From contig OX597814.1 of the NCBI GenBank assembly GCA_951406725.2, forward strand, positions 195,176,001-195,240,000: 64,000 nucleotides of DNA. Reading direction: 5' to 3'. Under the pieces are notes generated by a model, which saw only the letters and a list, made by a program, of their open reading frames with translations, had not been told where the DNA came from and ran no database searches. This document shows positions 4,020 through 26,745 of the stretch, piece after piece. Numbering within the stretch: position 1 is the stretch's first letter; the number at the start of each line of letters is the position of its first letter. The translations under genes were made by a program, and so were the position numbers. Origin of the DNA: Octopus vulgaris. Taxonomy: Eukaryota.

Positions 4020-4078
<59 letters not shown>

Positions 4079-4092
4079 AAGAGATGGAGAGA
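3853..4092. repeat. (AG)n microsatellite / purine tract
   Basis: Seen directly. Confidence 0.95.
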
Positions 4093-4469: not shown

Positions 4470-5250
4470 AGGCGGCGAGCTTGGCAGAATCGTTAGCACG
4501 CCGGGCATAAAGCTTAGCGGTATTTCGTCTGCCATCACGTTCTGAGTTCAAATTCCGCCGAGGTCGACTTTGCCTTTCATCCTTTCGTGATCGATAAATT
4601 AAGTACCAGTTACGCACTGGGGTCGATGTAATTGACTTAATCCGTTTGTCTGTCCTTGTTTGTCCCCTCTGTGTTTAGCCCCTTGTGGGTAGTAAAGAAA
4701 TAGGTATTTCGTCTGCCGTTACATTCTGAGTTCAAATTCCGCCGAGGCCGACTTTACCTTTCATCCTTTCGGGGTCGATAAATTAAGTAGCATTTACGCA
4801 CTGGGGTCGATATAATCGACTTAATCCGTTTGTCTGTTCTTGTTTGTCCTCTCTGTGTTTAGCCCCTTGTGGATAGAAAAGAAATAGGTATTTCGTCTAC
4901 CGTTACGTTCTGAGGCCGACTTTGCTTTTCAATCCTTTCGGGGTCGATCAATTAAGTAGCATTTACGCACGGGGGTCGATGTAATCGACTTAATCCGTTT
5001 GTCTGTCCTTGTTTGTCCCTTCTATGTTTAGCTCCTTATGGGAAACAAAGAAATAAGAATCGTTACCACGCCGGGCGAAATACTTAGCTGTATTTCGTCT
5101 TTCTTTACGTTCCGAGTTCAAATTCCGCCGAGGTCGACTTTGCCTTTCATCCTTTCGGGGTCGATAAATTAAGTACCAGTTGCGTACTGGGGTCGCTCTA
5201 ATCAACTGGCCTCTTCCCACCAAATTTAAGGCCTTGTGCCTATGGTAAAA
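4470..5250 (+). mobile_element. Tandem cluster of ~4 copies of SINE family 2
   Basis: Repeated gagttcaaattccgccgaggtcgactttgcctttcatcctttcggggtcgataaattaagtaccag core with A-box-like tggcagaatcgttag and B box gagttcaaat. The core resembles Meta/Sauria-SINE central domains, from memory. Confidence 0.85.
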
Positions 5251-5547
5251 AAAGCATTATGTTGATGCTGTAGTTGTTGCATAATTGCAGGTCAGCTCCA
5301 ACTGGAAAGACATAATATCGAAGGCGCTTCAAATATGACCATTCCAAACAAAATATATCCATAACTACATAATCCAACTGGTCCCTTGAAGTGTGAGTGA
5401 GGTTCAGCTGCGGTCTCTAGCAGATCCAGGTTATTTATTGGCTCGTCTTATCAGTGTGACGTGGTACAATGTGTATAAACCTTGCATTTAATAACTTTTA
5501 CTAGAAAAATATAATACTTCCTCTGCACCCCACCGCCTCTGTGGGAA

Positions 5548-5924
5548 GCACTCCGTCGGTGACGACGACGAGGGTTCCGGTTGATCCGATCAACGGAACA
5601 GCCTGCTCGTGAAATTAACGTGTAAGTGGCTGAGCACTCCACAGACACGTGCACCCTTAACGTAGTTCTCGGGGATATTCAGCGTGACACAGAGAGTGAC
5701 AAGGCCGGTCCTTTGAAATACAGGTACAACAGAAACAGGAAGAAAGAGTGAGAGAAAGTTGTGGTGAAAGAGTACAGCAGGGATCACCGCCATCCCTGCC
5801 GGAGCCTCGTGGAGCTTTTAGGTGTTTTCGCTCAATAAACACTCACAACGCCCGGTCTGGGAATCGAAACCGCGATCCTACGACCGCGAGTCCGCTGCCC
5901 TAACCACTGGGCCATTGCGCCTCC
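5548..5924 (-). mobile_element. tRNA-derived SINE, family 1
   Basis: Reverse complement begins ggaggcgcaatggcccagtggttagggcagcggactcgcggtcgtaggatcgcggtttcgattccc (A and B boxes). Homologous to 1596-1962. Confidence 0.85.
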
Positions 5925-6046
5925 TGCCTCTGTATAAACCTACGTACTAGATATACAAGCATGTCAAGTTTAGTTACTCCTGTGCAGACTGAAGAAAAAA
6001 TTATCAACAGCATTATTCGATTTTTGATCCTTATAGGGGTCTCATC

Positions 6047-6472
6047 CAGGGCCGGATTAAGACCCATCGAGGCCCTAAGCACTTAAAAGATTTTTGGTGC
6101 CCCTATAAAAAATTATGTAATTCAAAATATAAACAGTAACAAGCCATAAAATAAATTTTTGCTTTTCAAAACGAAACAAAACAGTAAGAGGGAAAATAAT
6201 GTTTACTTTTGTATACTTCCACTTTTTTTTATATTTGAAAAGTTTCCTCCTACTTTTTTTAATTGCAAAGTCTTTGATCAGATCCTCTAAATTAATCTTA
6301 TGTAACACATCTGCAGCTATACTTAGTAGAGATAAAGGCATCCCGAATATTATTTTAGCAAGTTTAAAGTGATTTCTTTTGTGCTGCAGACAATTTACCA
6401 TTTCTGTGGTGCCCTACTTCCCTTTGATGCCCTACACACAGGCTTTTCGGCTTAATGGTTAATCCAGCACTG
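6047..6472 (-). mobile_element. Non-autonomous hAT element with transposase C-terminal remnant
   Basis: TIRs CAGGGCCGGATTAA ... TTAATCCAGCACTG. Minus frame LSLLSIAADVLHKINLEDLIKDFAIKKSRRK resembles the end of the hAT dimerization domain. No clean 8-bp TSD. Confidence 0.75.
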
Positions 6473-6542
6473 AAAGGAGAGGGGAAGGACAAGAAAAGTG
6501 TTATCGATCTGTGTATGTGTGTGTAAATTAGTAGCCTGGGGT

Positions 6543-6921
6543 CAGGGCTGGATTAAGTCCCATCGAGGCCCTCAGCACTTAAAAGATTTTAGTACCCCCA
6601 TAAAAGATTATGTAATTCAAAATATAAACAAACAAAATATAAACAATAACAAACAAGACAAAACAAAACAGTGTGAGGGGATATAAAGTTCAGTTTTGTA
6701 TACTTCCATTTTATTTATATTTGAGAAGTTCCCTCCTATTTTTTTTAAATTGCAAAGTTTTTGGTCAGATCCTCAAAATTAATCTCAGGTAACACGTCTG
6801 CATCTATACTTAGTAGAGATAAAGGCATTCCAAATATTATTTTAGCAAGTTTAAAGTGATTTCTTTTGTGCCGTAAACCATTTACTATTTCTGTGGTGCC
6901 CTCCTCCTTCCCTTGATGCCC
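6543..6921 (-). mobile_element. Second, truncated copy of the same hAT element
   Basis: Starts cagggctggattaagtcccatcgaggccc and is colinear with 6047-6435. Right TIR missing. Confidence 0.75.
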
Positions 6922-7559
6922 TTTGTTCTGTTTTCACTCTCGTAATTCTATCTCTTTGTATTTTCTACTTTCTATATTTGCCTAACGACATTTTCTTTAA
7001 GTGAAAATCTTTGACAATATTTCGTTTTTGTATTCATGATGTGAACTTGTGTGTTGAAACAGATTGACTTATATGTCGAGAGGATCATCTTGCCAATGAT
7101 AGATCTGAAGCAGATCTGGAGTTGAGAGGTCACGTCATTGATGGGATCGCGAATGGCAACGAAAGGACTTTGACAAATCTAGCTGACTGATTGACTGAAC
7201 GGATTAATCAAACAATCGATTAAAATATAAAGTAATTGTCTAATAATGATAAAAGAAGTGAAATAAAACCAGTGCGTGAGCTCATTATTAGCAGAACGAC
7301 CCTCCCAAGATAGAATAAACTTTGACCATAACAATACAACATGTGTGGATTGGCATATTCTAGAATTTTCTTGTAGCATCAACCTGAGATTCTTTGTTGT
7401 GTATCATGATTTATTTGTGTATAATTCTAACATAATCCTAACAGAGATTCCATTGAACGAATCTTTCAAACCTGACATGTATATATTTACTCCGTTGTCG
7501 CCATAATGTCTTTCCTTTCTTCATATCCGTCACACATTCCGCCATTACTTTTGACTTGT

Positions 7560-7680
7560 ACTTTACTTTATCGACCCCGAAAGGATGAAAAACAAAGTCG
7601 ACCACGGAATTTGAACTCAGAATATAAAGAAGCGGAGGAAATGCTGATAAGCTGTTAGTTCGACGCGCTAACGATTTGCC
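7560..7680 (-). mobile_element. SINE family 2 fragment
   Basis: ttatcgaccccgaaaggatgaaaaacaaagtcgac...ggaatttgaactcag is the reverse complement of the family-2 core. Confidence 0.7.
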
Positions 7681-7883
7681 GGCTCGGTATCTTTTAGTTA
7701 TATAAAAATTTATATGCATTGCTGGAAAATTATGAAGGTTTTGTAGTTTTAGTACATTAAGGGGTTAAAGTTAATTTAGAGAGAGAAAAAAAAAGTGAAC
7801 AGTATCGCTCGTATATCACATTGCAGTTTAATAAACAACGTACAGCTATTAAAAAAAAGAAACAAAAAAATAACAGGAAGGCC

Positions 7884-7907
7884 TGCCGTGACTAGGATTC
7901 GAACCTG
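7884..7907 (-). pseudogene. tRNA-His 3' fragment (B box + acceptor strand)
   Basis: tgccgtgactaggattcgaacctg only. Confidence 0.8.
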
Positions 7908-8074
7908 TGAAGGCACAGTAGTAGTATTAGTGCATTAAGGGGTGTAAAGTTAATTTAGAGAGAAAAAAAAGTGACACAAATAACTAGAACAGTATCGCTC
8001 GTATATCACATTGCAACTTGATAAACAATGTACAGCTCTTAAAAAGAATATAAAAAAAAAAGTAACGGAAGGCC

Positions 8075-8098
8075 TGCCGTGACTAGGATTCGAACCTG
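8075..8098 (-). pseudogene. tRNA-His 3' fragment
   Basis: tgccgtgactaggattcgaacctg only. Confidence 0.8.
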
Positions 8099-8262
8099 TG
8101 AAGGCACAGTAGTAGTATTAGTACATTAAAGGGTGTAAAGTTAATTTACAAAAAAAAATGTGACACAAATAACTTGAGCAGTATCGCTCGTATATCATAT
8201 TGCAACTTAATAAACAAATGTACAGCTCTTAAAAAAAATAACATAAAAAGTAACGGAAGGCC

Positions 8263-8334
8263 TGCCGTGACCAGGATTCGAACCTGGGTTACCACGGCCA
8301 CAACGTGGGGTCCTAACCACTAGACGATCACGGC
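8263..8334 (-). tRNA. trnH-GUG: tRNA-His(GTG), consensus
   Basis: 72-nt cloverleaf, anticodon loop TTGTGGC, A/B boxes, downstream T run; A at -1. Confidence 0.97.
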
Positions 8335-9231
8335 TACTAGGCCAACCGGCGATGACACTCTGAATTAACCCATATCTAGGAAGCGTAAACTACTGTCAGT
8401 TCAGCGTTTGTTTGTTCAGCTTCTGTTTGACAACTTCGTAAGTTTTCTCGTAATTGCTATGAAAATTGTTTGTTTTACTAAAGACAAAAGACAGAAATAT
8501 TTCACACATAACCTGCTCTCTCGAACAAAGAAAGGTCAATACAGGACAGGCAGATTTACTTTAATCATACCTAAGGACACAGACTGGGATAAATTCTCAC
8601 GAATATTTTTTTTCTGTCTCACGATCATCTAGTTTTTTTCTTTTAAGGTGAAGTGTGTCAAGGACTACATTTATTTTAGATACAAACGTCTCCTTGAAAA
8701 ATTTTAGACAATACGGTTTAGTTTAAAGAAGATTGCGCTACTATTTCTAGCAGTACACGCATCCACGTGGGAACTCACATCTGCTCGGCAATAAGGAGAA
8801 TATTATAATTAGCCAATTACTTCTATCGTTATTTATCAGCTAGTTTCAAAGCTTTTAGAAAAATTTTAAATGTTGTTTCTAACTTTACATTGAAGTCATA
8901 AATATTTTATGTTAACATTAAAGCGATTTTATAGCGAAATATATAGCTGTTTACGTCTTTTAATTTCGTTTAATAATGAAGTGTGATGGACATTTCGAAA
9001 GCAATACTATTATCGCTATATCAATATCATTATACGAATCAAAATATATTTTTATTTTGATACAATTACCAAGTGTTTATTTATAAAGGGTCAAGTATTT
9101 ATTATATACATAACAAACAATAAATTATAGAAGCAAAAAATAAAAATAAAAAAGCTGTTAAAGGGAAATAACTCGTAATTAACTATTTACCTATTATTTC
9201 CCCTGAAAATATAAAACTTAATTTTCCTACT

Positions 9232-9614
9232 TTACTCTCCTTTACTCTTCTACTTGTTTCAGTCATTTTGACTGCGGCTATGCTGGAGCATCACATTTAG
9301 TCGGGCAAATCGACCCCAGGACTTATTCTTGGGAAGCCTAGTACTTATTCTATCGTTTTTTTGCCGAACCGCTAAGTTACGGGTACGTAAACACACCAGC
9401 ATCGGTTGTCAAGCGATGTTGGGGGACAAACACAGACACACAAACACACACATACACATATATATACATATACATATATACGATGGGCTTCTTTCAGTTT
9501 CCGTCTACCAAATTTACTCACAAGGCTTTGGTCGACCCGAGGCTATAGTAGAAGACGCTTGCCCAAGGAGCCATGCAGTGGGACTGAACCCGGAACCATG
9601 TGGTTGGTAAGCAA
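9232..9614 (-). mobile_element. tRNA-derived SINE family 3, body (head displaced to 10882-10953)
   Basis: tacttgtttcagtcattttgactgcggc...ccgctaagttacgg...gcagtgggactgaacccggaaccatgtggttggtaagcaa. Related pieces at 12713-13190, ~15200 and ~19045. Confidence 0.8.
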
Positions 9615-9779
9615 AAGCAGAGTCATGATCACTACTAGAAAAACTTTGAAGTCTAAAATTATATATAAAAGTAATACAAACAACTTGAACAGGGTGTCGC
9701 TGTGATATCACATTGCAGTAAAATAAGAAAATCAATAAATAAGTGGAAAAAATATATGAAAAAAAAAGTGAAACTAAGC

Positions 9780-9851
9780 TGCCTTGACCAGGATTCGAAC
9801 CCGGGTTACCACGGCCACAACGTGCGGTCCTAACCACTAGACGATCACGGC
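9780..9851 (-). tRNA. trnH-GUG: tRNA-His(GTG) variant, 3 substitutions, possibly pseudogene
   Basis: Anticodon stem GCACG (mismatch), T stem CCGGG (wobble), acceptor TCAAGGC (mismatch). Confidence 0.7.
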
Positions 9852-9993
9852 TAACAGATCCGCTACTACGTTAGTCTTTAAATTATCTATGTCTAGAACA
9901 AACAAACTAATTAACTTTTGTCAGGTTAGTTAATTGTCTTTGTTTCTTTTAGATATACGTAATATAAAACTTGTTTTACAAGCAGGCGTGTTA

Positions 9994-10065
9994 GCCGTGA
10001 TCGTCTAGTGGTTAGGACCCCACGTTGTGGCCGTGGTAACCCAGGTTCGAATCCTGGTCACGGCA
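9994..10065 (+). tRNA. trnH-GUG: tRNA-His(GTG), consensus
   Basis: Exact consensus; T run terminator from 10075. Confidence 0.97.
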
Positions 10066-10200
10066 CGTCATCTCTTTTTTTTCTTTTTTAGTAATCTACA
10101 ATGTGATATCGCAGTGATATCTGTTTAAGTTCTTTGTTTCTTTTATTGACTCCAGTTTCCTAGTTTGTCTGAAGATTGCTTTCGTTGTGTTTGGAGAATA

Positions 10201-10481
10201 TTTGGCATTCCTTCGATATAACTCGACAAAATCAAAACATTTCACTTCGAGTATTTCCGTGGGTTGTGGAGTATAGATGTAATGAAATTATGCCAGCAAT
10301 GTCTCATTTTAAACTTGAAGGAAAAAAAGCCTTACATATTTGTTCCTACCCGTTTCATGCGTGTATGTAAAATCCGCAAATTTCCCAAGCAGAAAACAGA
10401 ATCGAACTGTCATTTGCATCCACGGAAATACCCGAAGTGAAATGCTTTGATTTTGTCGAGTTATATCGAAAGAATGCCGAA
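10201..10481. mobile_element. ~280 bp MITE with ~60-bp TIRs
   Basis: ggcattccttcgatataactcgacaaaatcaaaacatttcacttcg ... cgaagtgaaatgctttgattttgtcgagttatatcgaaagaatgcc. Confidence 0.75.
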
Positions 10482-10881
10482 TATTTTTATTTCTTCTTTT
10501 TTTTTTATTTTCTTCATAAAAGACAAATACGAGGTTTGTCAGGCAATAAGAGGTTGTCTTTTCGTCCCTTGATCAACGCTAATCGAGCAGACCTATGATG
10601 AAGTCGTGACTGTCAGTATTTTGTATTGATGTATAGTTATCCCTGTAGATATTCTATTGAATTTAGATCCAGCACTAAAAGTTAACGACGTTTCGTACAC
10701 GAATACGTATATATAGACAATGCGTTCGAAGAAGGGGCAATCACTCCCGATATATATATATACCGTAAATCCTCGAGTATAATGCGCATTTTTTTCCCAA
10801 AATTTAAATGTCAAAATCCTTAGTGCTTACTATTTACGAGGTTAAAATGAAAATATTTTTCTAAGCAATATCCGAGTCTCT

Positions 10882-10953
10882 ATGCAGTGGGACTGAACCC
10901 GGAACCATGTGGTTGGTAAGCAAGCTACTTACCACGCAGCCACTCCTGCGCCT
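10882..10953 (-). mobile_element. SINE family 3 tRNA-like head
   Basis: Reverse complement aggcgcaggagtggctgcgtggtaagtagcttgcttaccaaccacatggttccgggttcagtcccactgcat (A and B boxes). Confidence 0.8.
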
Positions 10954-12712: not shown

Positions 12713-13190
12713 CTTTTACTTGTTTCAGACATTACACTGCGGCTATACTGGGACTCCGCCTTGATGAATTTTTAGTCCAATGTAAAAACTCCAGGACTTA
12801 TGTTTTTTTCTAAAGCCCAGTACTTATTCTGCCGGTCGCTTTTGCCGAACCGCTAAGTTACGGGGACGTAAAATCACCAATACCGGTTGTCAAGCGGTGG
12901 TGGGGTACAAACACACACACACACACGTATGAACTCGCATGTGTGCATATACATGCACACACACGCGCATATATATGCATACACATATATGCATGATTGT
13001 TTGTATGTATGTGTGTGTGTATGTCTATGTGCGCGTGCGCGTGTGTGCGTGCGCGCGCGTGTTTGTATAGGTGCTTCCAAACCACATGGTTCCGGATCCA
13101 GTTCCACTGCGTGGCACCTTGAGCAAATGTCATCGACTAAAGCCTCGGGCTAACCAAAGCATTGTGAGTGGATTTGGTAGGCGGAAACTA
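12713..13190. mobile_element. SINE family 3 fragments in opposite orientations separated by CA/TG repeats
   Basis: 12713-12920 matches 9240-9430. 13070-13190 matches the reverse complement of ~9495-9605. Confidence 0.7.
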
Positions 13191-13785
13191 AAAAAAGAGT
13201 ATATTCGGCATATTCTCCTTTATTCGTTCAATAAAAGCAACCACGCAACGGAAAGTGCAAGCAATATTAATGCAATATATGCGGATTGGACAATAAGCAT
13301 AAGCCAGTGTCAACGGTGGTTCCAGAAGTTCCGAGTCGGAAATTGCAGGCTAGAAGACGAGCCTCGTTTTGGAAGATCTATAGAGCTCGACGAAGACGTC
13401 CTGCAAACCCTGGTGGAACAAAATCCCATCGTAACTGTTGAGGAACTAGCTGAAAAGCTTCGATTTGGTCATTGAACCAGTCATTCAAGTCAGCGCTAGA
13501 AAAAAAATGACCATCTTTAGTTTCAAGACGAAAAGTGTTCTTCCACCAGGATAATGCTTGGTCACATACAGAGAAGATGACATTCCAAAGGCTGGAGTAG
13601 TTTGAATGGGAAACGATGCCCCACCCACCATATTCGTCGAACATTGCTCCATCTGGTTATCATTTATATTTTGCAATCTTCAAAATTATTTGGACGGAAA
13701 AAATATGAATTTCGTAGACGAGGTCAGAACAGTGCTGGAGGAGTATTTTTCGTCACAGACAAGTGAATCTTGGAAGAGGGGCCTT
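13190..13785 (+). pseudogene. Decayed mariner transposase (internally deleted)
   Basis: HTH region YIRHILLY...CQRWFQKFRVGNCRLEDEPRFGRS...PIVTVEELAEKL. Downstream frames give FFHQDNA and PHPPYSSNIAPSGYHL (YSPDLAPSD motif). Stops and frameshifts present. Confidence 0.85.
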
Positions 13786-14113
13786 CGTTCACTTTTAGTG
13801 CTGGATCTAAATTCAATAGAATATCTATAGAGATAACAATACATCAAAACAAAATGCTGACGATCACGACTCCATCATAGGTCTGCTCGATTAGCGTTGA
13901 TCAAGGGACGAAAAGACAACCTCTCATTGTCTGACAAACCTCGTATTTGTCTTTTATGAAGAAAAAAAAAAGAAAGAAAAGATCTTCTCCAAACTCAACC
14001 AAAACAATCTTCAAAGAAACTAGGAAACTGGAGTTAATAAAAGAAACAAAGAACTTATACCGATATCGCTGCGATATCACATTCTAAATTACAAAAAAAA
14101 AAAAAAAGTGACG

Positions 14114-14185
14114 TGCCGTGACCAGGATTCGAACCTGGGTTACCACGGCCACAACGTGGGGTCCTAACCACTAGACGATCACGGC
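14114..14185 (-). tRNA. trnH-GUG: tRNA-His(GTG), consensus
   Basis: Exact consensus, long T terminator. Confidence 0.97.
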
Positions 14186-14321
14186 TAACACGCCAGTTAG
14201 TAAATCAGGTTTTATATTACATATATCTAAAAGAAACAAGACAATTAACTAACCTAACAAAAGTTAATTAATGTTTATTCTAGATATACATAATTTAAAG
14301 CCTAACGTAGCGGATCTGTTA

Positions 14322-14393
14322 GCCGTGATCGTCTAGTGGTTAGGACCCCACGTTGTGGCCGTGGTAACCCAGGTTCGAATCCTGGTCACGGCA
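14322..14393 (+). tRNA. trnH-GUG: tRNA-His(GTG), consensus
   Basis: Exact consensus, T run at 14406. Confidence 0.97.
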
Positions 14394-14890
14394 GCTCAGT
14401 TTCACTTTTTTTTTCATATATTTTTTCCACTTATTTATTGATTTTCTTATTTTACTGCAATGTGATATCACAGCGATACCTGTTCAAGTTGTTTGTATTA
14501 CTTTTATATATAATTTTAGACTTCAAAGTTTTTCTAGTCGCGATCATGCCTTTGCTTTTGCAGTGTGGACCAGAATATAGCGTTGTTGATAAATTACTTT
14601 TGTTTTTGATTTCTCCAGGAATTTGTTTCTTCACGCTGGGAAGTAATATTATCTCTAACAATGTTAGGTATTCCAATGCAGTAATTGACTGTTCACGCCC
14701 TGTAAACACACTAATGGCTTGGCGACAACGTGGCTTTGGTTTTCAATCTCACTGCGCTTTACTTTCGGCAAATGGCTTCTACAATAGTCCCGAACACGAA
14801 ATTTCTTTCTCACGAGAGTTCCGGACCCTAGTTATGAACTCATTTGCATACAGCCAATCAGAGCTCAACTATCAAACTAGTGTCCACCAA

Positions 14891-14990
14891 TTCTTCTTCT
14901 TCTTCTTCTTCTTCTTCTTCTTCTTCTTCTTCTTCTTCTTCTTCTTCTTCTTCTTCTTCTTCTTCTTCTTCTTCTTCTTCTTCTTCTCCT
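14891..14990. repeat. (TTC)n microsatellite (tail of short SINE)
   Basis: Seen directly; positionally equivalent to (TTA)n in units B and C. Confidence 0.95.
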
Positions 14991-15048
14991 TCAGGACACT
15001 GCCCGGAATCGAACTCGGAATCTTGGGGTTGGTAGTCCGCGCTCTTAA
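14991..15048 (-). mobile_element. Short tRNA-like SINE head with trinucleotide tail
   Basis: Reverse complement ttaagagcgcggactaccaaccccaagattccgagttcgattccgggcagtgtcctga + (GAA)n. B box GAGTTCGATTCC; the A box is retained only in the 18831 copy. Confidence 0.65.
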
Positions 15049-15978
15049 GATGAAAAAGTCGTAAAGGCTGAAACCGGTACTAAAATGTTCTTCATGATGA
15101 AATTATTTTAGCATTTTTTATCTTGTCCTATTTTCCTTATACATATCCACTCGTGTGTTGCTTTTCAACCTTATACACTCCACCTACGCACATTTTTATT
15201 CTTTTACTTGTTTCAAAGCATTTGACTACGGCCATGCTGGAGTACCACCTTTAGTCGACCCCAGGTCATATTCTTTGTAAGCTTAGTACTTATTCTATCG
15301 GACTCAAGGAGGTCTATATAACGTCCTTGGTTTGTAAAACTGTATATGGTGACGTCCTTTATTATTAATGTACATATAACATAATGCAAACGTGTAGCTT
15401 TTTTGTGCATTTTGTTTGCAGAACGTAAAGAAATAACAGTAATAACATTTAATAAAGTTACTTACTGCAAGTTATGGATGATTCTTTTATGACTTCATTG
15501 CTTTCAGGCTTAGCATAAGGTATTTTCGCGCCGGACATTGCAAAATACGTCTGAATAAATATTGCCAGACAGCAAATAGAAACTCGGACATTGCTTAGAA
15601 AATAATTTCCATTTTTAACCTCGTATATAGTAAGCACTAGGGATTTTGGCCTTTAAATTTTTGGGAAAAAATGCGCATTATACTCGAGGATTTACGGTAT
15701 ACATATTTCGGGGGTGATTGCTCCTTCTTCGAACGCATTGTCTATATATACGTATATATACTTTTGTCTATATATACTTTTGGTGCTGGATCTAAATTCA
15801 ATAGAATATCTACAGAGATAATTATACATCAAAACAAAATACTGACGCTCACGACTCCCATCATAGGTCTGCTCGAGTAGCGTTGATCAAGGGACGAAAA
15901 GACAACCTCTTATTGTCTGACAAACCTCGTATTTGTCTTTTATGAAGAAAATATAAAAAATAGAAGAAATAAAATACA

Positions 15979-16259
15979 TTCGGCATTCTTTCGATATAAC
16001 TCGACAAAATCAAAGCATTTCACTTCGGGTATTTCCGTAGCAGCAAATGATAGTTCAATTCTGTTTTCTTCTTGGAAATTTGCGGATTTTACATACACAC
16101 ATGGAACAGGTAAGAACAAATATGAAAGGCTTTTGTTTCCTTCAAGTTTAAAATAAGACATTGCTGGCATAATTTCGTTATATCTATACTCCACAACCCA
16201 CGGAAACAATCGAAGTGAAATGTTTTGATTTTGTCGAGTTATATCGAAGGAATGCCAAA
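15979..16259. mobile_element. ~280 bp MITE (unit B)
   Basis: Same TIRs as 10201-10481; absent from unit A at ~13980. Confidence 0.75.
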
Positions 16260-16399
16260 TATTCTCCAAACCCAACGAAAGCAATCTTGCAATCTTCAGA
16301 GAAACTAGGAAACTGGAGTCAATAAAAGAAACAAAGAACTTAAACCGATATCGCTGCGATATCACATTGTAGATTACTAAAAAAAAAAAAAAAGTGACG

Positions 16400-16471
16400 T
16401 GCCGTGACCAGGATTCGAACCTGGGTTACCACGGCCACAACGTGGGGTCCTAACCACTAGACGATCACGGC
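16400..16471 (-). tRNA. trnH-GUG: tRNA-His(GTG), consensus
   Basis: Exact consensus. Confidence 0.97.
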
Positions 16472-16610
16472 TAACACGCCTGCTTGTGAAGCAGGTTTTA
16501 TATTACGTATATCTAAAAGAAACAAGACAATTAACTAACCTAACAAAAGTTAATTAATGTTTATTCTAGATATACATAATTTAAAGCCTAACGCAGCAGC
16601 GGATCTGTTA

Positions 16611-16682
16611 GCCGTGATCGTCTAGTGGTTAGGACCCCACGTTGTGGCCGTGGTAACCCAGGTTCGAATCCTGGTCACGGCA
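16611..16682 (+). tRNA. trnH-GUG: tRNA-His(GTG), consensus
   Basis: Exact consensus. Confidence 0.97.
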
Positions 16683-17193
16683 GCTCAGATTCTTTTATTT
16701 CTTTTTTCGTATATTTTTTCTCCTCTTTTATTGATTTTCTTAATTTACTGGAATGTGATATCACAGCGATACCAGTTCAAGTTGTTTGTGTTACTTTTAT
16801 ATATAATTTTAGACTTCAAAGTTTTTCTAGTCGCGAGCATGGCTCTGCTTTTGCAGTGTGGACCGGAATATAGCGTTGTTGACAAATTACTTTGTTTTTG
16901 ATTTCTCCAGGAAATTGTTTCTTCACGCTCGTATCTCTAACAATGTTAGGTATTCCAATGCAGTAATTGACTGTTCACGCCCTGCAAACACACTAATGGC
17001 TTGGCGACCACGTGGTTTCGGTTTTCAATCTCACTATGCGGTACCTTCGGTAAATGCCTTCTACAATAGTCCCGAACACGAAATTTTTTTCTCACGAGAG
17101 TTCCGGACCCCAGTTATGAACTCATTTGCATACAGCCAATCAGAGCTCAAATATCAAACTAGTGTCGACCTATTATTATTATTATTATTATTA

Positions 17194-18891
<1,698 letters not shown>

Positions 18892-19799
18892 TTAAGCTGA
18901 AAAAGTCGCAAAGTCTGAAACCGGTACTAAAATGTTCATAATAAAATTATTTTGGCATTTTTTATCTTGTCCTATTTTCCTTATACATATCTACTCACGT
19001 GTTGCTTTTCAACCTTATACACTCCACCCACACACATTTTTATTCTTTTACTTGTTTCAGGCATGGAGTACCACCTTTAGTCGACGCCAGGTCATATTCT
19101 TTGTACTTATTCTATCGGACTCAATGAGCTCTATATAACGTCCTTGGTTTGTATAACTGTATATGGTAACGTCCTTTATTATTAATGTACATATAACATA
19201 ATGCAAACGTGTAGCTTTTTTGTGCATTTTGTTTGCAGAAAGTAAAGAAATAACAGTAATAACGTTTAATAATGTTGCTTGCTGAAAATTATGGTTGATT
19301 CTTTTATGACTTCATTGCTTTCAGGCTTAGCTTAAGGTATTTTCGCGCCGGACAACACAAAATGCGTCTGAATAAACATTGCCGGACAGCAAATAGAGAT
19401 TCGGACATTGCTTATAAAATAATTTTCAATTTTAACCTCATATATAGCACGCACTAGGGATTTTGACCTTTAAATTTTGGGAAAAAAATGCGGATTATTA
19501 CTCGAGGATTTACGGTATATATATATTTCGGGAGTGATTGCCCCTTCTTCGAACGCATTGTCTACATATACGTATTCGTGTACGAAACGTCGTTAACTTT
19601 TGGTGCTGGAGCTAAATTCAGTAGAATATTTACAGAGATAACTATACTTCAAAACAAAAGACTGTCGATCACGACTTCATAATAGGTCTGCTCGATTAGC
19701 GTTGATCAAGAGACGAAAAGACAACCTCTTATTGCCTGATAAACCTCGTATTTGTCTTTTATGAAAAGAAAAAAAAAAAAAAAGAAGAAATAAAAAATA

Positions 19800-20080
19800 T
19801 TCGGCATTCTTTCGATATAACTCGACAAAATCAAAGCATTTCACTTCGGGTATTTCTGTGGAAGCAAATGACAGTTCGATTCTGTTTTCTGCTTGGAAAT
19901 TTGCGGATTTTACATACACACATGAAACAGGTAAGAACAAATATGAAAGGCTTTTGTTTCCTTCAAGTTTAAAATAAGACATTGCTGGCATAATTTCGTT
20001 ATATCTATACTCCACAACCCACGGAAACAATCGAAGTGAAATGTTTTGATTTTGTCGAGTTATATCGAAGGAATGCCAAA
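19800..20080. mobile_element. ~280 bp MITE (unit C)
   Basis: Same TIRs as the other copies. Confidence 0.75.
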
Positions 20081-20218
20081 TATTCTCCAAACCCAACGAA
20101 AGCAATCTTGCAATCTTCAGAGAAACTAGGAAACTGGAGTCAATAAAAGAAACAAAGAACTTAAACCGATATCGCTGCGATATCACATTGTAAATTACAA
20201 AAAAAAAAAAAAATGACG

Positions 20219-20290
20219 TGCCGTGACCAGGATTCGAACCTGGGTTACCACGGCCACAACGTGGGGTCCTAACCACTAGACGATCACGGC
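20219..20290 (-). tRNA. trnH-GUG: tRNA-His(GTG), consensus
   Basis: Exact consensus. Confidence 0.97.
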
Positions 20291-20433
20291 TAACACGCCT
20301 GCTTGTGAAGCAGGTTTTATATTACGTATATCTAAAAGAAACAAGACAATTAACTAACCTAGTAAAAGTTAATTAGTTTGTTTGTTCTAGACATACATAA
20401 TTTAAAGACTAACGTAGCAGCGGAGATCTGTTA

Positions 20434-20505
20434 GCCGCGATCGTCTAGTGGTTAGGACCCCACGTTGTGGCTGTGGTAACCCAGGTTCGAATCCTGGTCA
20501 CGGCA
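20434..20505 (+). tRNA. trnH-GUG: tRNA-His(GTG) variant (2 substitutions)
   Basis: GCCGCGA acceptor mismatch; TGTGG anticodon-stem wobble. Confidence 0.8.
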
Positions 20506-20940
20506 GCTCAGATTCTTTTATTTCTTTTTTCGTATATTTTTTCTCTTCTTTTATTGATTTTCTTAATTTACTGTAATGTGATATCACAGCGACACCTTGT
20601 TCAAGTTGTTTGTTTTATAATTTTAGACTTCAAAGTTTTTCTAGTCACTAGCATGACACTGTTTTTGCAGTGTGGGCCGGAATATAGTGTTGTTCTTGAT
20701 TTCTCCAGGAATTCTTCACGATGGGAAGTAATCGTATCTCTAACAATGTTAGGTATTCCAATGCAGTAATTAACTGTTCACGCCCTGTAAACACACTAAT
20801 GGCTTGGCGATCACGTGGTTTCGGTTTTCAGTATCACTGCGAAATGCCTTCTACAATAGTCTCGGACACGAAAGTTTTTTTCCCACGAGAGTTCCAGACC
20901 CCAGTTATGAACTCATTTGCATACAGCCAATCAGAGCTCA

Positions 20941-21020
<80 letters not shown>

Positions 21021-21586
21021 ATTCAGTAGTTTTATTTTTATAGCGTGCTTTCACTTCACTACCGAGCGCAGCTCTGTGTGCCTTGGGTATGTGCTGTGAT
21101 TTGTTGTGATGCTCTGATGGTTATTGTATGGAAAGTGTTCTGCGTAGGATGTGTGCAGTGCCTAGTAGTGCAATTTTCTGTATGTTATATGTGTTTGTAA
21201 GTCCTGGTGTTTTTGTTATGTATTTGTCTGAATATTTTTTTATCATGCCTAATGCACCTACTATGATAGGAATTGTTTCTGTTTTCAGATTCCACATTCT
21301 AGTTACCTCTATTTCCAGGTCTTTGTATTTTGAGAGTTTCTCCATTTCTTTTGGAGACACGTTGTCATCAGCCGGTATTGATACATCAATTAGAAAGCAT
21401 TTTTTTTCTTCATGATCTCTGACAACTATATCTGGTCTGTTGGCCTTAATTTCTCTATCTGTGTGTATCGGCATATCCCAGAGTATGGTTGCTTTCTCGT
21501 TTTCTGTCACCTTTTCTGGTGTGTGCCTATACCATCTTTTTTCTGTTGTTATTCCATAATGTTGGCATAGCTTCCAATGTATGTAG

Positions 21587-21587
<1 letters not shown>
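21021..21587 (-). mobile_element. Heavily 5'-truncated R4/Dong-like element, family B, within (TAA)n
   Basis: Distinct 3' UTR; (TTA)n at 20944-21018 and 21588-21875. Confidence 0.88.
21121..21587 (-). CDS. Partial restriction-like endonuclease domain (family B)
   Basis: YIHWKLCQHY...ILWDMPIHTDREIKANRPDIVVRD...LIDVSIP...EKLSKYKDLEIE...IPIIVGALG: homologous to family A but clearly diverged. Confidence 0.75.
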
Positions 21588-21660
<73 letters not shown>

Positions 21661-21675
21661 CATCATCATTATTAC

Positions 21676-21744
<69 letters not shown>

Positions 21745-21755
21745 CATTATTATCA

Positions 21756-21830
<75 letters not shown>

Positions 21831-21875
21831 TTATTATTATTATTATCATTATTATTATTATTATTATTATTATTA
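21588..21875. repeat. Long (TTA)n/(TCA) microsatellite
   Basis: Seen directly. Confidence 0.95.
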
Positions 21876-22047
21876 CTTTTTTTTTCTTTCAAATTTGCTT
21901 CCATTTCTTGCCGAGTGTCTTCCCGACTCCTAGGGCAAAGAAACTCATAGTATACATTGGTAGGCCATTAAACCAAACTCAATAGTTCGTTCATATTTTT
22001 TTTTATTTTTTTAAAGTTAAATTAAAATACATGAGCAGCAACAGTTC

Positions 22048-22838
22048 TCACATCGACAATGCTCTTCTCAATACGTGTGATGTACCAGTTAAGACAATCT
22101 TTTGCACTTCTTGCAGGGATGGTAAGCCAGGGATCATTCTCATATAATTTTCGGTTCCCTTCTTGATCATTCCTAGTGCTCCTACGATCACTGGTATTGT
22201 AACCGCCTTGAGATGCCACATTTTCTCAATTTCAATGAGTAGGTCTTTATATTTTCTGAGCTTGTCAAACTCTTTCGCTGAGATATTATGATCACAGGGG
22301 ATGCTCATGTCGATCAATAAGCAAACTTTATTGTTTTGGTCTTTCACAACAATATCTGGTTTATTGGCCTTGATTGTTCGGTCTGTATGTACTGGAAAGT
22401 CCCACAGAATGGTTACATTTTCTCCTTCAGTTACAGCCTCAGGGTGGTGATTATACCACTTGTCGGCAGTTTTGATATTGTAATGCCGACTTATTAGCCA
22501 GTGGAGATATTGGCCAACTCTGTCATGTCTTAATTTATACTCCACTGGTGCTAAGACTTTACATCCAGAGATTAGGTGGTCCACTGTTTCAATCATGTCG
22601 TTGCAGAATCGGCATTTTGGGTCTGCCCCATTTTTCATCACATTGGCCTGGTAGTTCCGGGTTAATAGGCTTTGATCTTGAGCAGCCAGGATGAAACCTT
22701 CGCTCTCTGCTTTTAGCCCTGAGCTCCGTAGCCACTGATGGGTTTGCTTCTGGTCAACATCAGCTTGTTTGCTGCGGGTCACATATTTGCCGTGCAGAGG
22801 TTTCTCCTCCCACCTACCAGCCAATTGCTCGTGCGCTT
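22048..22838 (-). CDS. C-terminal CCHC + RLE endonuclease frame after the frameshift
   Basis: Same protein as the 17378 ORF; joined to the upstream frame by restoring one T at 22837-22841. Confidence 0.8.
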
Positions 22839-25682
22839 TTTCATTGCCATCATTTTCACCTTCTTTGCAACAATAGTTGCCGTACTTCCCTCGGGTTGTT
22901 CAGTTTGGGTATCCTGCACGAGATCAATAGCAAATTTTTTGCTTTCCTTTATGATAGAATGAAGCTTCTTTCGTCTCTCGTGATTTTCCACGAGCTTTAG
23001 CATCCAGTCATTCAATATTTCGAGATATTTGGCCAGTCCAATTGTGGTTGTTTTGTAAGCTAGTTCAAATTGGATCAGGCCTCGACCTCCTTGGGCTCTG
23101 GGAAGGTAAAGGCGATCTACGTCTGCCTTTAGGTGGTGCATCTTATTACAACCCAGCAGCTTGCGTATTTTTCTATCTATATTCTTTACTTCACTCATAT
23201 TCCAGTTCAACACATTGTAGCTATAAGTAACAACTGGAACTGCTAAGGAATTTATAGCTAACACCTTGTTACGTGCATTTAGTTCAGATTTCAGGACTGC
23301 ACGAACTCTCCTATAACATTCCTTCCTGATTTTCTCTTTCATGCTTGCATGCTGAATACCAGAGCCTTCATTTATCCCTAAATATTTGTATGTTTGTTCT
23401 TGCTCAAGCTCTCTTATGACTGTGTCAACATCTAACACGACTGAATTTGTGGTCTTCACTTTCCCTTTCTGGAAAGTGGCCTTGGCACACTTCTCAAGTC
23501 CAAACTCCATCCCGATGTCATCGCTGAATGCTTTCACGGTGCGCAATAGGCCTTCAAGTTCATTATTGTCTTTACCATAAAGTTTTAAGTCATCCATATA
23601 AAATAGATGGCTTATTTTTTTATTGGCAATTTTATACCCATACCCTGTTCTGTTTAATTCACTTGTAAGGGGTATTAGGGCTATGCAGAATATTAAAGGT
23701 GAAAGTGAGTCACCTTGAAAAATTCCACAGTTGATGTTTATATTTTCTGAGGCAAGTACTCCATTAGAGTGGTATAATTGGAGATTCGTATTCCACAACG
23801 ACATATTGTGCTTCAGGAAGTTTGAAATCACAGGGGAAATTTTGAAGATGTCCAGCGATCTCAAGATCCATGGATGCGGTATACTGTCGAAGGCCTTTTT
23901 GTAGTCAATCCATGCGGTGCTGAGATTTCTGCGCTTGTTGCGACAGTTCTCAAGGATCATACGATTGATTAGCAGTTGATCTTTGCATCCGTAAGAGCCT
24001 CGGCGGCACCCTTTTTGTTCAGTGGGGAAAATATCGTTTTTCTCCATGAATGCATATGTTTTCTCCGCCAGGATAGATGTTAGGATTTTATACGTGGTGG
24101 ATAGACAGGTTATAGGCCGATAGTTTTTTGGAAGGTTAGTTTCGTTATTCTTTGGGAGTAGGTAAGTAATGCCACTTGCTAACCATTCAGGTGTTTTCTT
24201 TGGGTCTCTCATAATTCCATTGAGCAGCTGAACTAGCTTACCGTGTGCGCATGGGAGCGATGCGAGCCAGAAATTCGGCACCCTATCTTTACCGGGGGAT
24301 TTCCAATTATGGGCCTTCGTGAGTGCCTTTCTTAGGTCTGCTATTGTGATGTCTTCCCATGCTTGTTGTTGTAAATTTTGGTAGGATCCTTCAGTTTGTA
24401 TAATCCAGTCTGCATTTATGTTGTACGTCTTCTTGTCACTCCAAATCCTTTTCCAAAAGTTTTGAACTTCTTCCATGGGAGGGGGGTCTTTAACGATTAC
24501 TTTCTCCTTCCCTATTTCTCTGTAGAATTTTTTGGCATTGGATGTGAACAGCTTATTTTGCTTGTAAAACTTGTTTCTCTTCTCAAATCTTCGTATTCTT
24601 TGGGCTTTTGCTTGGACTTTTTGTTTCAGCGTTTCTTTTATTGATATCAGTTCTTCTCTTGGTGAGGATCCAAATTTTCTCTTCATCTTTCTTCCTGTTC
24701 TGGATCTTACATCATTTCCACATATTAGTTCATTTAATATTGATGTTTCCCCTCTCATAAATTCAATCTCTTTTTCAATTTTACTTCTCCAGGTTTGATT
24801 TCTTCCCAGGTTTTGTTTTCTTTGTTTTTTCGGGGGCATACAGCTGGTTTCAATTGCCCTAGCAGAAGCGTAAATAATTTCATTTAACTCAGTAAAATCA
24901 GGTTTTAATTCTCGTATTATTTCATTTGTTACATAGTTGCCAATTTGGATTTGTTTTTTATTTTGGTTTGTATTTGAGAGTTTATGAAGTGGTTCTCTAT
25001 CATTCATACTTGTATGTCTTACAACTTCAAGCGTATTCAGGATTTTCTGCCTCATTTCTGCCATAGACTCTCTGTGTTCTTCAGCAAATGTGAGATCTTC
25101 AGTTACTGTTGTTTTTTCGTTTTCCTGGCTATCTTTAACAGGTACAATAGAATTTCTTGTATCTTCAGGCCTTTGCGTACTTTGGTCAGATGGCAGTCTT
25201 TCAATTAAGCCTCGTGGCGGGCTATACTGTTCATCTGATTCTTCATTCCCTTTGTGTCTTATATTTATGTCATTTTCCGTTGCGTGCTTGATCGCGCTTA
25301 TTTCACTGTCTGTGAGTCTGTTATTTCTAAGGATATCCCTCCTCACATTTGCTAATTTGTTCTCGTCCAAATAGGGCCTACTGTCTTGATTCCGTGTTCT
25401 CCATATACTGTAAGAGTTTGCGGTGTCTCTCTCTTGAGATGGCCTACCTAATGCATAGTAATAAGCGTATATTACTTCTTTATACTCTTCTCGGGTCCAT
25501 TTGTTCCGCTTACATTTTTCTTTCTGTGGTGGTTGTGGTGGTGAACTTGGAGGGCTCGAGTTGGGGGATTTCCCGTTCAAGTGACCATCCATGTCCGTAT
25601 TCGGAGAAGAGTTTGTGCCAGTTGATGACTTTTCGATCCCAGGCTGGCTCTTCCCTGGGGGACGCGCTTCCAGATTAACCAT
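22779..25682 (-). CDS. Reverse transcriptase of R4/Dong-like element
   Basis: KSPGKD, NYRPITCL, EQKGC, WIDYKKAFDSIPH, GIFQGDSLSP, LFYMDDLKLY, YKYLG. Likely start MVNLEARPP at 25682; the frame is open to 25805. Confidence 0.92.
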   Translation of the reverse strand: MVNLEARPPGKSQPGIEKSSTGTNSSPNTDMDGHLNGKSPNSSPPSSPPQPPQKEKCKRNKWTREEYKEVIYAYYYALGRPSQERDTANSYSIWRTRNQDSRPYLDENKLANVRRDILRNNRLTDSEISAIKHATENDINIRHKGNEESDEQYSPPRGLIERLPSDQSTQRPEDTRNSIVPVKDSQENEKTTVTEDLTFAEEHRESMAEMRQKILNTLEVVRHTSMNDREPLHKLSNTNQNKKQIQIGNYVTNEIIRELKPDFTELNEIIYASARAIETSCMPPKKQRKQNLGRNQTWRSKIEKEIEFMRGETSILNELICGNDVRSRTGRKMKRKFGSSPREELISIKETLKQKVQAKAQRIRRFEKRNKFYKQNKLFTSNAKKFYREIGKEKVIVKDPPPMEEVQNFWKRIWSDKKTYNINADWIIQTEGSYQNLQQQAWEDITIADLRKALTKAHNWKSPGKDRVPNFWLASLPCAHGKLVQLLNGIMRDPKKTPEWLASGITYLLPKNNETNLPKNYRPITCLSTTYKILTSILAEKTYAFMEKNDIFPTEQKGCRRGSYGCKDQLLINRMILENCRNKRRNLSTAWIDYKKAFDSIPHPWILRSLDIFKISPVISNFLKHNMSLWNTNLQLYHSNGVLASENININCGIFQGDSLSPLIFCIALIPLTSELNRTGYGYKIANKKISHLFYMDDLKLYGKDNNELEGLLRTVKAFSDDIGMEFGLEKCAKATFQKGKVKTTNSVVLDVDTVIRELEQEQTYKYLGINEGSGIQHASMKEKIRKECYRRVRAVLKSELNARNKVLAINSLAVPVVTYSYNVLNWNMSEVKNIDRKIRKLLGCNKMHHLKADVDRLYLPRAQGGRGLIQFELAYKTTTIGLAKYLEILNDWMLKLVENHERRKKLHSIIKESKKFAIDLVQDTQTEQPEGSTATIVAKKVKMMAMKKRTSNWLVGGRRNLCTANM

Positions 25683-25704
25683 AGGACAAGCGATTTGGTA
25701 TACT

Positions 25705-26120
25705 GATTTAGTTTTCCTTTTAGTTTCCAAAATACAAAAATGCGCTGAGTCATACAGACTGTCTGCAAATGCGCATGCGCATTCAACTGTCAAAGGTAAT
25801 ATCATCTCCGTCCAATCAAAAAACAGCTGGCAATCTATTGGCGTATCTAGCTGTATGCACGCATCGCGTACAAATTTCTTAGCGATTTTGAATGGATATG
25901 TCCATAACTTATGGGCATAAGAGGTCGGTTTATCGATTTTTTAATGGCTTTCTGGGGTGACTGCAGAAATGAAAAGATCTTCACGATCACCTTCAGACAG
26001 TTTTGAAAGCCCATAGAAAATGTGAGCCTTTTACGTGAAAAACTGTGGATTTGTATAAAGGACACACAGACACACAGACACACAGATATACAGACATTTT
26101 GCCGTTTATAGATATAGAGA
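25705..26120 (-). mobile_element. Possible non-autonomous Helitron-like fragment
   Basis: Minus strand A|TCTCTATATCTATAAACGGCAAAATGTCTG followed by (TGTGTGTC)n. No 3' CTRR/hairpin found. Confidence 0.45.
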
Positions 26121-26199
26121 TATCACCGTAAAATTTAATTTTGGATAGTATGATCCGACTAGTGCCGAGCGATCTCATTACATTTAATCATCCATTAAT

Positions 26200-26745
26200 C
26201 CATGTCGGATGAAATGCTTAGCAGCATTTCTTCCGGCTTTACGTTCTTGGTTGTAACATTCTTTTGGGGTTGATAGAATAAATATTAGCTGGGCCTTGGG
26301 GTCGATGTAATCGACTCCTCCCTACCCGGAAACTGCTGGCCTTGCGCCAAAACCTGAAACCGATATAACCTAAGGGGGAGAGGTGATAGAGTCGTGAGTA
26401 CGCCGGACGAAGTGCTTTATCTTCTGAGATCAAATACTGCTGAGGTCGACGTTGCCTTTCATTCTTTCAGGGTCGATAAATTAAGTACCAGTTGCATACT
26501 GGGGTCGATCTAATCGGCTGCCCCCCCCCAAAAAAAAATTCAGGTTTTGTGCATAGAGTAGAAAAGAATCGTTAGCACGCCGGACGAAATGTTTAGCGAC
26601 GTTGCATCCACCTTAACGTTTTGAGTTCAAATACTGTCAAAGTCAGCTTTGTTTTTTTATCCTTTCAGGGTCGACAAAATAAAACACCAGTCAAATTAAT
26701 TGACTAATCCTCTTTCTAAAATTGCTGACATTGCGTGAAAATTAG
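26200..26745 (+). mobile_element. Degenerate SINE family 2 cluster
   Basis: Several cores gaggtcgacgttgcctttcattctttcagggtcgataaattaagtaccag. Confidence 0.7.

What the first reader, a model, noticed from the sequence alone, without database searches (positions are those of the whole stretch)
14881..25700. Natural experiment on R4/Dong target choice: (TAA)n paralogs are hit, the (TTC)n paralog is empty
Seen: each ~2.3 kb unit has a trinucleotide tract shortly after cagccaatcagagctca. In unit A it is (TTC)n (14891-14990) and carries no insertion. In unit B it is (TTA)n split by a 1540-bp truncated element, with the same right flank tcaggacactgcc resuming at 18831. In unit C it is (TTA)n holding two stacked elements. 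All three insertions are oriented so TAA is on the sense strand. Established: Dong elements of the R4 clade target TAA repeats through an RLE endonuclease. Inference: these are sequence- and strand-specific insertions, and the tract motif decides whether a unit is a target.
Basis: partly seen in the sequence, partly recalled or inferred. Interest (0 to 1): 0.72.

Follow-up and report, generated by a model that had tools for sequence, protein, structure and literature searches.

The report
Dong retrotransposons in TAA microsatellites
Two young retrotransposon families, likely of the Dong group, sit in TAA repeats in one orientation across this genome, as is known for that group; the single empty GAA repeat proves little, because about four in five comparable TAA repeats are empty too and this GAA repeat likely arose from a TAA repeat.

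Summary
Partly confirmed. Three paralogous tRNA-His units exist. A has an empty (TTC)32. B has a 1.54-kb truncated LINE inside (TTA)n. C has two stacked LINEs, but the larger has no TTA at its 5' end and C's right flank is missing. The tract is the internal (AAT)n of an abundant tRNA-headed repeat, so A's GAA is derived. TAA and strand preference hold genome-wide: 76 of 78 visible 5' junctions have (AAT)n upstream; in a systematic 800-kb sample 16 of 66 AAT tracts versus 0 of 93 others lead into an element, all on the TAA strand. That is published Dong behaviour. The 'natural experiment' is weak: only 13 of 68 matched TAA tracts are hit, so one empty site has a likelihood ratio near 1.2; matched GAA tracts give 1 of 13 (p 0.45). 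Unexpected: GAA runs lie almost only 3' of TAA tracts (7,259 versus 114) and abut 14 of 53 full-length family-1 5' ends (background about 3%). The scan had noted Dong/TAA elements and the host repeat on other DNA.

The parts
13982..14890 (+). Unit A, left part: spacer, inverted tRNA-His pair (14113-14185 minus, 14322-14393 plus) and a cut fragment of a dispersed repeat ending at the tract
14891..14991 (.). (TTC)32 tract, empty; on the minus strand AAG GAG (AAG)31 AAT; likely converted from (AAT)n
14992..15048 (-). tRNA-like head of an abundant repeat (Penelope-type end repeat by earlier scan notes), part of the A box lost
16399..16682 (.). Unit B inverted tRNA-His(GTG) pair (16399-16471 minus, 16611-16682 plus)
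17171..17192 (-). (AAT)7 at the 3' end of the unit-B element
17195..18733 (-). Family-1 RLE LINE, 5'-truncated (positions 4016-5535 of a 5,536-nt full-length copy, 97.2%); open frame with CCHC knuckle and RLE motifs
18734..18830 (-). (AAT)32 at the 5' junction of the unit-B element; the host repeat's own tract
18832..18893 (-). tRNA-like head of the host repeat, unit B copy
20218..20505 (.). Unit C inverted tRNA-His(GTG) pair (20218-20290 minus, 20434-20505 plus)
20941..21023 (-). (AAT)24-25 at the 3' end of the family-2 element; about 21 nt of left flank missing against A and B
21024..21587 (-). Family-2 RLE LINE, 5'-truncated (563 nt at 98.8% to a 3,939-nt copy); RLE region and 3' UTR
21588..21875 (-). 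Compound (AAT)~96 between the two stacked elements
21876..25732 (-). Family-1 RLE LINE, 3,857 nt, whole coding region with a 1-nt deletion that breaks the frame after the RT; about 1,690 nt of 5' UTR absent; no TAA at the 5' junction
25733..25990 (+). Unrelated dispersed repeat (461 candidates), entered mid-body at a CAAAA microhomology; extends further right

Best explanation
Two young single-ORF retrotransposon families with a restriction-like endonuclease, likely of the Dong/R4 clade, sit in (TAA)n tracts on the TAA strand throughout this genome, and three copies inserted, likely independently, into this tandemly duplicated tRNA-His unit. History (steps 1-2 shown by sequence, 3-5 inferred): (1) a tRNA-headed repeat with an internal (AAT)n tract landed in a tRNA-His unit; (2) the unit was duplicated in tandem, and the copies now differ by 4-9%; (3) much later family-1 and family-2 elements inserted by target-primed reverse transcription, likely from a nick in the TTA strand, into the B and C tracts, one into the tail or flank of the other; (4) a microhomology-joined deletion, at or after insertion, removed C's 5' tract and right flank; (5) A's tract changed from TAA to GAA, most likely by slippage of a variant unit at the tract's 3' end. 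A is empty mainly because most tracts are empty. Loss of TAA probably adds protection, but this locus cannot show it.
For: Domain order Myb-like WTxEE, RT (YMDD), CCHC, RHD, PD..D in intact copies of both families, with no N-terminal zinc-finger pattern; the only PDB relatives are R2 proteins (5 sequences, best E 1.4e-28). 5' junctions: 96 copies examined, 78 with the junction in view, 76 with (AAT)n upstream, 2 without; background 0.2% of positions. 3' ends AAT in 95 of 96. Systematic sample of 80 x 10 kb: 16 of 66 AAT clusters lead into an element on the AAT strand, 0 of 66 on the other strand, 0 of 93 non-AAT clusters on the same strand (p 2e-7). Host repeats split by an element with the native sequence resuming after it: L258, L260, L316, L349, L268, L160. 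B and C copies differ at 28 of 1,527 sites and each is closer to copies elsewhere (13-14 differences); units differ at 37-65 of about 850 and 107 of 1,237 sites. Head + (AAT)10: 1,179 loci; head + (AAG)5: 13 loci. Dong/(TAA)n in insects, molluscs and cnidarians: PMC7998251 (passages), PMC3812793 (passages). Compound microsatellites arising at tract ends: PMC2644718 (abstract and passages).
Against: No labelled Dong, R4, Rex6, Hero or NeSL sequence was available, so the RT tree cannot assign the clade. GAA runs abut 14 of 53 full-length family-1 5' ends against about 4 of 121 comparable tracts (p 2e-5), which plain slippage does not obviously explain. L385 has an element directly after a tract with no TAA left. 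Two of 78 junctions, plus the window's own large copy, have no 5' TAA. Six of the 16 sample hits are stacked behind another element and are not independent. Two of two TAA tracts hit here is above the 19% base rate (chance about 0.04, but the locus was picked for it). Pooling the two tests gives p 0.04 without L160 and 0.13 with it, so some GAA avoidance is likely real but unproven.
Confidence: 0.82

Rival explanations
1. One reading: the tract motif alone decides; unit A was spared because it is GAA.
For: 0 of 5 GAA-only clusters in the sample and 0 of 12 head-GAA tracts without a TAA remnant are hit, against 29 of 134 TAA tracts (pooled p 0.04, pooling chosen after the fact). None of the 10 visible 3' ends of GAA-abutting copies has a GAA run.
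Against: 81% of matched TAA tracts are empty, so one empty site has a likelihood ratio near 1.2. The date of A's conversion relative to the insertions is unknown. L160 and L385 are GAA-headed tracts with elements. Tracts ending in GAA lead into an element in 4 of 30 cases against 16 of 66 (p 0.28).
Confidence: 0.3
2. The elements make the GAA runs: the RT stutters on the AAG at the family-1 5' end (or carries a GAA run over from the donor site in its RNA), so GAA tracts, including A's, are scars of complete or aborted insertions that convert targets into non-targets.
For: AAT-then-AAG 7,259 versus AAG-then-AAT 114 genome-wide; the AAC control is 5,709 versus 8,553. 14 of 53 full-length 5' junctions abut GAA, against 2 of 66 truncated junctions (p 2e-4) and about 3% of tracts. 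Family 1 has AAG-rich sequence at both ends.
Against: 25-26 of 30 AAT-AAG tracts have no element directly after the GAA run, and elements are not enriched on either side (4 of 30 downstream, 8 of 30 upstream). Several GAA runs are parted from the element by an AAT unit, as in element-free tracts (L380, L382). End-of-tract slippage is a published route to compound repeats (PMC2644718).
Confidence: 0.15
3. TAA on both sides is element-made (tail plus 5' slippage or duplication) and insertion is not targeted.
For: 3' tails are TAA in 95 of 96 copies; 2 of 78 genomic copies and the window's large copy lack 5' TAA.
Against: Elements split the native tract of a host repeat whose sequence resumes after them (six loci); truncation points vary over kilobases yet all but two meet TAA.
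Confidence: 0.04
4. The GAA tracts, including A's, are sequencing or assembly errors in long TAA runs.
For: No independent reads across the tract were obtained (one search was uninformative); the strict polarity could suit a directional read error.
Against: Tandem duplicates L369 and L370 share the same interrupted GAA run while their TAA lengths differ; matches are balanced between chromosome strands (3,688 and 3,571).
Confidence: 0.04

Closest known systems
Dong (Bombyx mori), DongAg, DongBg and ostracod Dong1/2; R4 clade (PMC3812793 and PMC7998251, passages read; PMC3774820, passages read)
   Same: (TAA)n target, single ORF with N-terminal Myb-like segment and no N-terminal zinc finger, RT, CCHC, RLE; 5' truncation; TAA on the sense strand at both junctions.
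   Different: Very high copy number here (83,761 first-look candidates for the family-2 C-terminus, all related families included); about 1.7-kb 5' UTR in family 1; GAA runs at a quarter of full-length family-1 5' ends; the HDV-like ribozyme shown for B. mori Dong was not detected by my scans.
Dong-R4 families of Octopus vulgaris (PMC13282606, part 1 of 3 and passages read: 5 recently active families, 1,129 insertions; PMC8967140, passages read)
   Same: Same superfamily label, young age and genus; proteins named Octopus vulgaris match parts of family 1 at 92-99%. These families are probably among those counted.
   Different: I did not compare sequences with their library. 'Target site' does not occur in the main text of PMC13282606; its supplements were not opened.
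R2 elements (PDB 9nl3, 9dou, 9nl2, 8gh6, 8ibw)
   Same: RT plus CCHC plus RLE layout; the model for target-primed reverse transcription used here.
   Different: Distant (best 102 bits, against 634 bits for a Pediculus protein); no N-terminal zinc fingers; target is a microsatellite, not 28S rDNA.
Koshi (TTC)n-targeting elements (PMC3812793, passage read)
   Same: Shows that (TTC)n can be a target for other non-LTR elements.
   Different: Another lineage (Tx1 by recall and by an earlier scan note); no such element lies in unit A.

Membership tests
R4/Dong clade | Single long ORF with RT and C-terminal CCHC + restriction-like endonuclease, no APE domain | tested here: met
   1,229-aa (L096, L120) and 1,242-codon (L310) open frames; RVT_1 in 12 of 12 aligned proteins and no APE family hit; CCHC, RHD and PD..D motifs aligned. 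No Pfam model for the RLE itself matched; it is read from motifs.
R4/Dong clade | N-terminal diverged Myb/SANT-like segment without zinc fingers (PMC7998251) | tested here: met
   Conserved WTxEE segment in the alignment; no C2H2 or CCHC pattern in the first 480 aa of either family. The Myb label rests on the motif and the paper; Pfam gave no Myb hit.
R4/Dong clade | RT phylogeny groups with labelled Dong/R4/Rex6 and apart from R2, NeSL, Hero | tested here: inconclusive
   Both families fall in one clade (100/99) with insect, crustacean and cnidarian proteins, including a Pediculus protein, a species in the published R4/Dong alignment; no labelled RLE references were in the tree.
Dong lineage | Insertion into (TAA)n in fixed orientation | tested here: met
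   76 of 78 5' junctions; 16 of 66 versus 0 of 93 clusters; 16 to 0 by strand.
Dong lineage | HDV-like self-cleaving ribozyme at the 5' end (PMC3774820) | tested here: inconclusive
   No Rfam ribozyme hit on L106 and L128; a strict home-made descriptor found nothing in four 5' ends and had no positive control.
Dong lineage | Endonuclease nicks (TTA)n and not (TTC)n | not testable with these tools
   Needs biochemistry.
Penelope-like end repeat (host of the tract) | tRNA-like head + (AAT)n + hammerhead-type CTGATGA...GAAA segment | tested here: met
   Seen in most of 29 other loci and in the head+tract loci; the window's copies lack the part after the tract. The hammerhead label is read from the motif.
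Penelope-like end repeat (host of the tract) | Linked to a Penelope RT/GIY-YIG ORF | not tested
   Taken from earlier scan notes only.

The most novel reading that the evidence does not exclude
Dong activity rewrites its own targets: the element adds GAA runs to the 3' end of TAA tracts during complete or aborted insertion, which would explain the 64-to-1 genome-wide TAA-then-GAA order, the GAA runs at 26% of full-length family-1 5' ends, and fully converted tracts such as unit A. The empty TTC paralog would then be a scar of the element, not a site it ignored.
Probability: 0.15. Interest if true: 0.68.

Novelty: new member of a known kind. Interest (0 to 1): 0.3.

Why it matters
TAA targeting by Dong is known from flanks, and this genome confirms it at scale with young, intact copies of two families (47% identical proteins) that are good material for biochemistry on how a Myb-like domain and an RLE read a microsatellite. 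The locus itself adds little. The part worth following is the one-way TAA-to-GAA conversion: whether made by slippage or by the element, it removes targets over time and gives 13 matched GAA versions of one host repeat for a properly powered test.

Tried and rejected
DNA search with the family-2 3' end found nothing, probably because its words are too common; a protein query worked. Reads and contigs laid on the repeat-free spacer right of tract A gave no read across the junction: 3 raw reads in three runs and a pile of short repeat contigs in one; no conclusion on the tract or on polymorphism. Rfam found only tRNAs above threshold in 13700-26500 and no ribozyme at family-1 5' ends. The head does not fold better than shuffles (z 0.56). 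Two protein searches returned no hit named Dong or R4. PMC309301 (original Dong paper) and PMC4400214 were not held. Rejected: B and C elements as one insertion duplicated with the unit; the tract as the tail of a simple SINE (the family continues after the tract); true insertion into GAA with GAA on both sides (0 of 10 visible 3' ends). Rows dropped before counts: one AAG run inside a family-2 ORF (L242) and, a weak opposite-strand protein hit (L325, 25% identity). One search had an empty family-3 query and gave 9 of 68; with the corrected library and a non-autonomous family gave 13 of 68, which includes one duplicated pair (L268/L269) and one doubtful 77-nt fragment (L327). Literature searches for the TAA-GAA polarity found nothing on it (only PMC2644718 bears on it, and the passages I saw treat strand conformation and end-of-tract origin, not 5'-to-3' order).
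Full report
Setting. The window lies in a 2.8-Gb genome (G000:C1:195176001-195240000). Proteins named Octopus vulgaris match parts of the large element at 92-99%, so the host is likely an octopus. The window holds 28 tRNA-His(GTG) genes. The three 'units' are tandem copies of a stretch with an inverted tRNA-His pair. 14891-17201 aligns with 18731-20987 at 87.7%. Left parts differ at 48 of 875 (A-B), 65 of 840 (A-C) and 37 of 845 (B-C) sites, right parts at 107 of 1,237.

Observation. A and B are as described: (TTC)32 empty, and (TTA)7 + element 17195-18733 + (TTA)32 with the right flank at 18831. All three elements read on the minus strand, so TAA is on their sense strand. C differs. A 564-nt family-2 piece (21024-21587) lies between (TTA)25 and a compound (TTA)~96. 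A 3,857-nt family-1 copy follows (21876-25732). It lacks about 1,690 nt of 5' UTR, has no TAA at its 5' end, and joins the middle of another repeat (461 candidates) at a shared CAAAA. The unit's right part has no match after C, and about 21 nt of the left flank are missing too. C is therefore a damaged site, not a clean replicate.

What the tract is. The 'right flank' is, on the minus strand, a tRNA-like head with A- and B-box-like motifs. It has at least 1,004 candidates in the genome. In the 29 other loci fetched the head runs into an AAT-type tract, and in most of them the family then continues with a segment holding a hammerhead-type CTGATGA...GAAA motif (label read from the motif). Earlier scan notes call this a Penelope end repeat; I did not test the link to a Penelope ORF. 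Exact patterns give 1,179 loci of head + (AAT)10 and 13 of head + (AAG)5. So TAA is ancestral. Because A and B descend from one insertion of this repeat, A's tract changed in place after the duplication; it ends in one AAT unit, like many GAA runs elsewhere.

The elements. Intact copies elsewhere encode 1,229 aa (family 1; 2 of 39 copies fully open) and a 1,242-codon frame (family 2), 47% identical to each other. Both show a WTxEE segment, YMDD RT, CCHC, RHD and PD..D motifs, and no N-terminal zinc-finger pattern. Pfam gives RVT_1 and no APE domain. The only PDB relatives are five R2 sequences. This is the layout that PMC7998251 gives for R4/Dong (passages), which also states that (TAA)n is the target in most insects, molluscs and cnidarians. 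PMC13282606 lists 5 recently active Dong-R4 families with 1,129 insertions in O. vulgaris (part 1 of 3 and passages; supplements not opened). My RT tree puts both families in one well-supported clade with a Pediculus protein but has no labelled references, and scans for the 5' HDV-like ribozyme were blank without a positive control. Membership is likely, not proven. Family-1 copies differ by a median 1.6%. The B and C copies differ at 28 of 1,527 sites, and each is nearer to copies on other chromosomes (13-14 differences), so they inserted independently, well after the duplication.

Target test. I examined 96 genomic copies (28 + 39 of family 1, 29 of family 2; best-scoring hits, not random; two duplicated pairs and one copy present in two samples). 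95 end in AAT. The 5' junction was in view in 78. The script called 68 AAT, 5 AAT-then-AAG and 5 other. By eye four of the 'other' have the tract behind a short duplicated piece or an AT run, and one scored AAT (L102) has none. That gives 76 of 78 with (AAT)n upstream, against a background of 0.2% of positions. In a systematic sample of 80 stretches of 10 kb, 16 of 66 AAT clusters lead into a Dong-type 5' end on the AAT strand and none on the other strand. Six of the 16 are stacked behind another element. Of 93 non-AAT clusters none does so on the same strand (two have an opposite-strand element end beside them; one AAG run inside an ORF was dropped). In six loci an element splits the host repeat's tract and the native sequence resumes after it.

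Is the locus an experiment? No. Of 68 head + (AAT)10 loci (the first ones listed on C1; 68 of 1,179), 13 are hit. An empty site is the usual state, and one empty site favours 'GAA is avoided' by a factor of about 1.2. The 13 head + (AAG)5 loci give 1 hit, L160, where the element follows a GAA-GAT run and keeps a TAA tail (p 0.45; 0.20 without it). GAA-only clusters in the sample give 0 of 5 (p 0.58). Pooling gives p 0.04 without L160 and 0.13 with it. The trend fits avoidance but is underpowered, and today's motif need not be the motif at insertion.

The unexpected part. Genome-wide, (AAT)5(AAG)5 occurs 7,259 times and the reverse order 114 times; for AAC the counts are 5,709 and 8,553. GAA runs thus form almost only at the 3' end of TAA tracts. 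In the first 30 such loci elements are neither enriched nor clearly depleted (4 directly downstream, perhaps 5; 8 upstream). But at full-length family-1 5' ends caught by one pattern (53 loci after merging overlapping matches by hand), 14 abut a GAA run, 38 a TAA run and 1 is mixed. The comparison figures are about 4 of 121 tracts and 2 of 66 truncated junctions (p 2e-5 and 2e-4). Thirteen of the 14 keep 10 or more AAT units further upstream. One (L385) has no TAA left, so a GAA-only tract like A's can stand before an element. All 10 visible 3' ends are TAA without a GAA run, which argues against true insertion into GAA. The simplest reading is end-of-tract slippage (PMC2644718, abstract and passages), helped by the AAG at the element's first bases. 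RT stutter, or a GAA run carried from the donor site in the RNA, is not excluded. Four searches found no paper on this polarity (in the scan's notes, 79, 87). An assembly error is unlikely (shared interrupted run in duplicates L369/L370) but no independent reads could be brought to bear.

Verdict. TAA- and strand-specific insertion by likely Dong elements is real and known. The three-unit contrast is an anecdote with one damaged replicate and a derived, undated GAA tract. Interest 0.30, resting mostly on the one-way TAA-to-GAA conversion and its excess at full-length 5' ends.

Noticed in passing
G000 genome-wide; L350-L379: (AAT)5(AAG)5 outnumbers the reverse order 7,259 to 114, while AAT/AAC is 5,709 to 8,553; many GAA runs end one AAT unit before the flank.
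   Followed up: partly
L380-L390, L092, L123, L128: 14 of 53 full-length family-1 5' ends abut a GAA run; 13 keep TAA upstream, L385 does not.
   Followed up: partly
L243:5756-6311; L170, L185, L228, L234, L160, L349: A 556-nt non-coding family flanked by (AAT)n on both sides shares its 3' 110-120 nt with a coding Dong-type family (L023); likely a non-autonomous partner. Its head was not analysed.
   Followed up: partly
window 8263-63722: Array of 28 tRNA-His(GTG) genes, about 2 kb apart to the right of the finding, and as inverted pairs at 9780-10066 and in units A-C.
   Followed up: no
window 9611-10883: Inverted fourth copy of the unit (about 91% identical) that stops before the tract.
   Followed up: partly
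window 13071-13790: Mariner-type transposase remnant (Pfam HTH_48, E 3e-16) at the left edge of unit A.
   Followed up: no
L106 and other full-length family-1 copies: About 1.7-kb 5' UTR with internal A-runs, GAT/AAT repeats and frequent internal deletions; its first 100 nt hold several hairpins, possibly a ribozyme that my scans missed.
   Followed up: partly
L218, L242, L249, L310, L092, L113: At least five Dong-type families stack in the same TAA tracts, head to tail.
   Followed up: partly
L005, L024, L125, L295: Short duplications of the element's first 20-35 nt at the 5' junction, as expected from re-priming during insertion.
   Followed up: no
L258: A short inverted-repeat element is nested in the 3' region of a Dong-type copy.
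   Followed up: no
window 25733-26110: Dispersed repeat with a TGCGCATGCGCA palindrome and an ACAG/ACAC run near its end, resembling Helentron-type non-autonomous elements (label recalled, not tested).
   Followed up: partly
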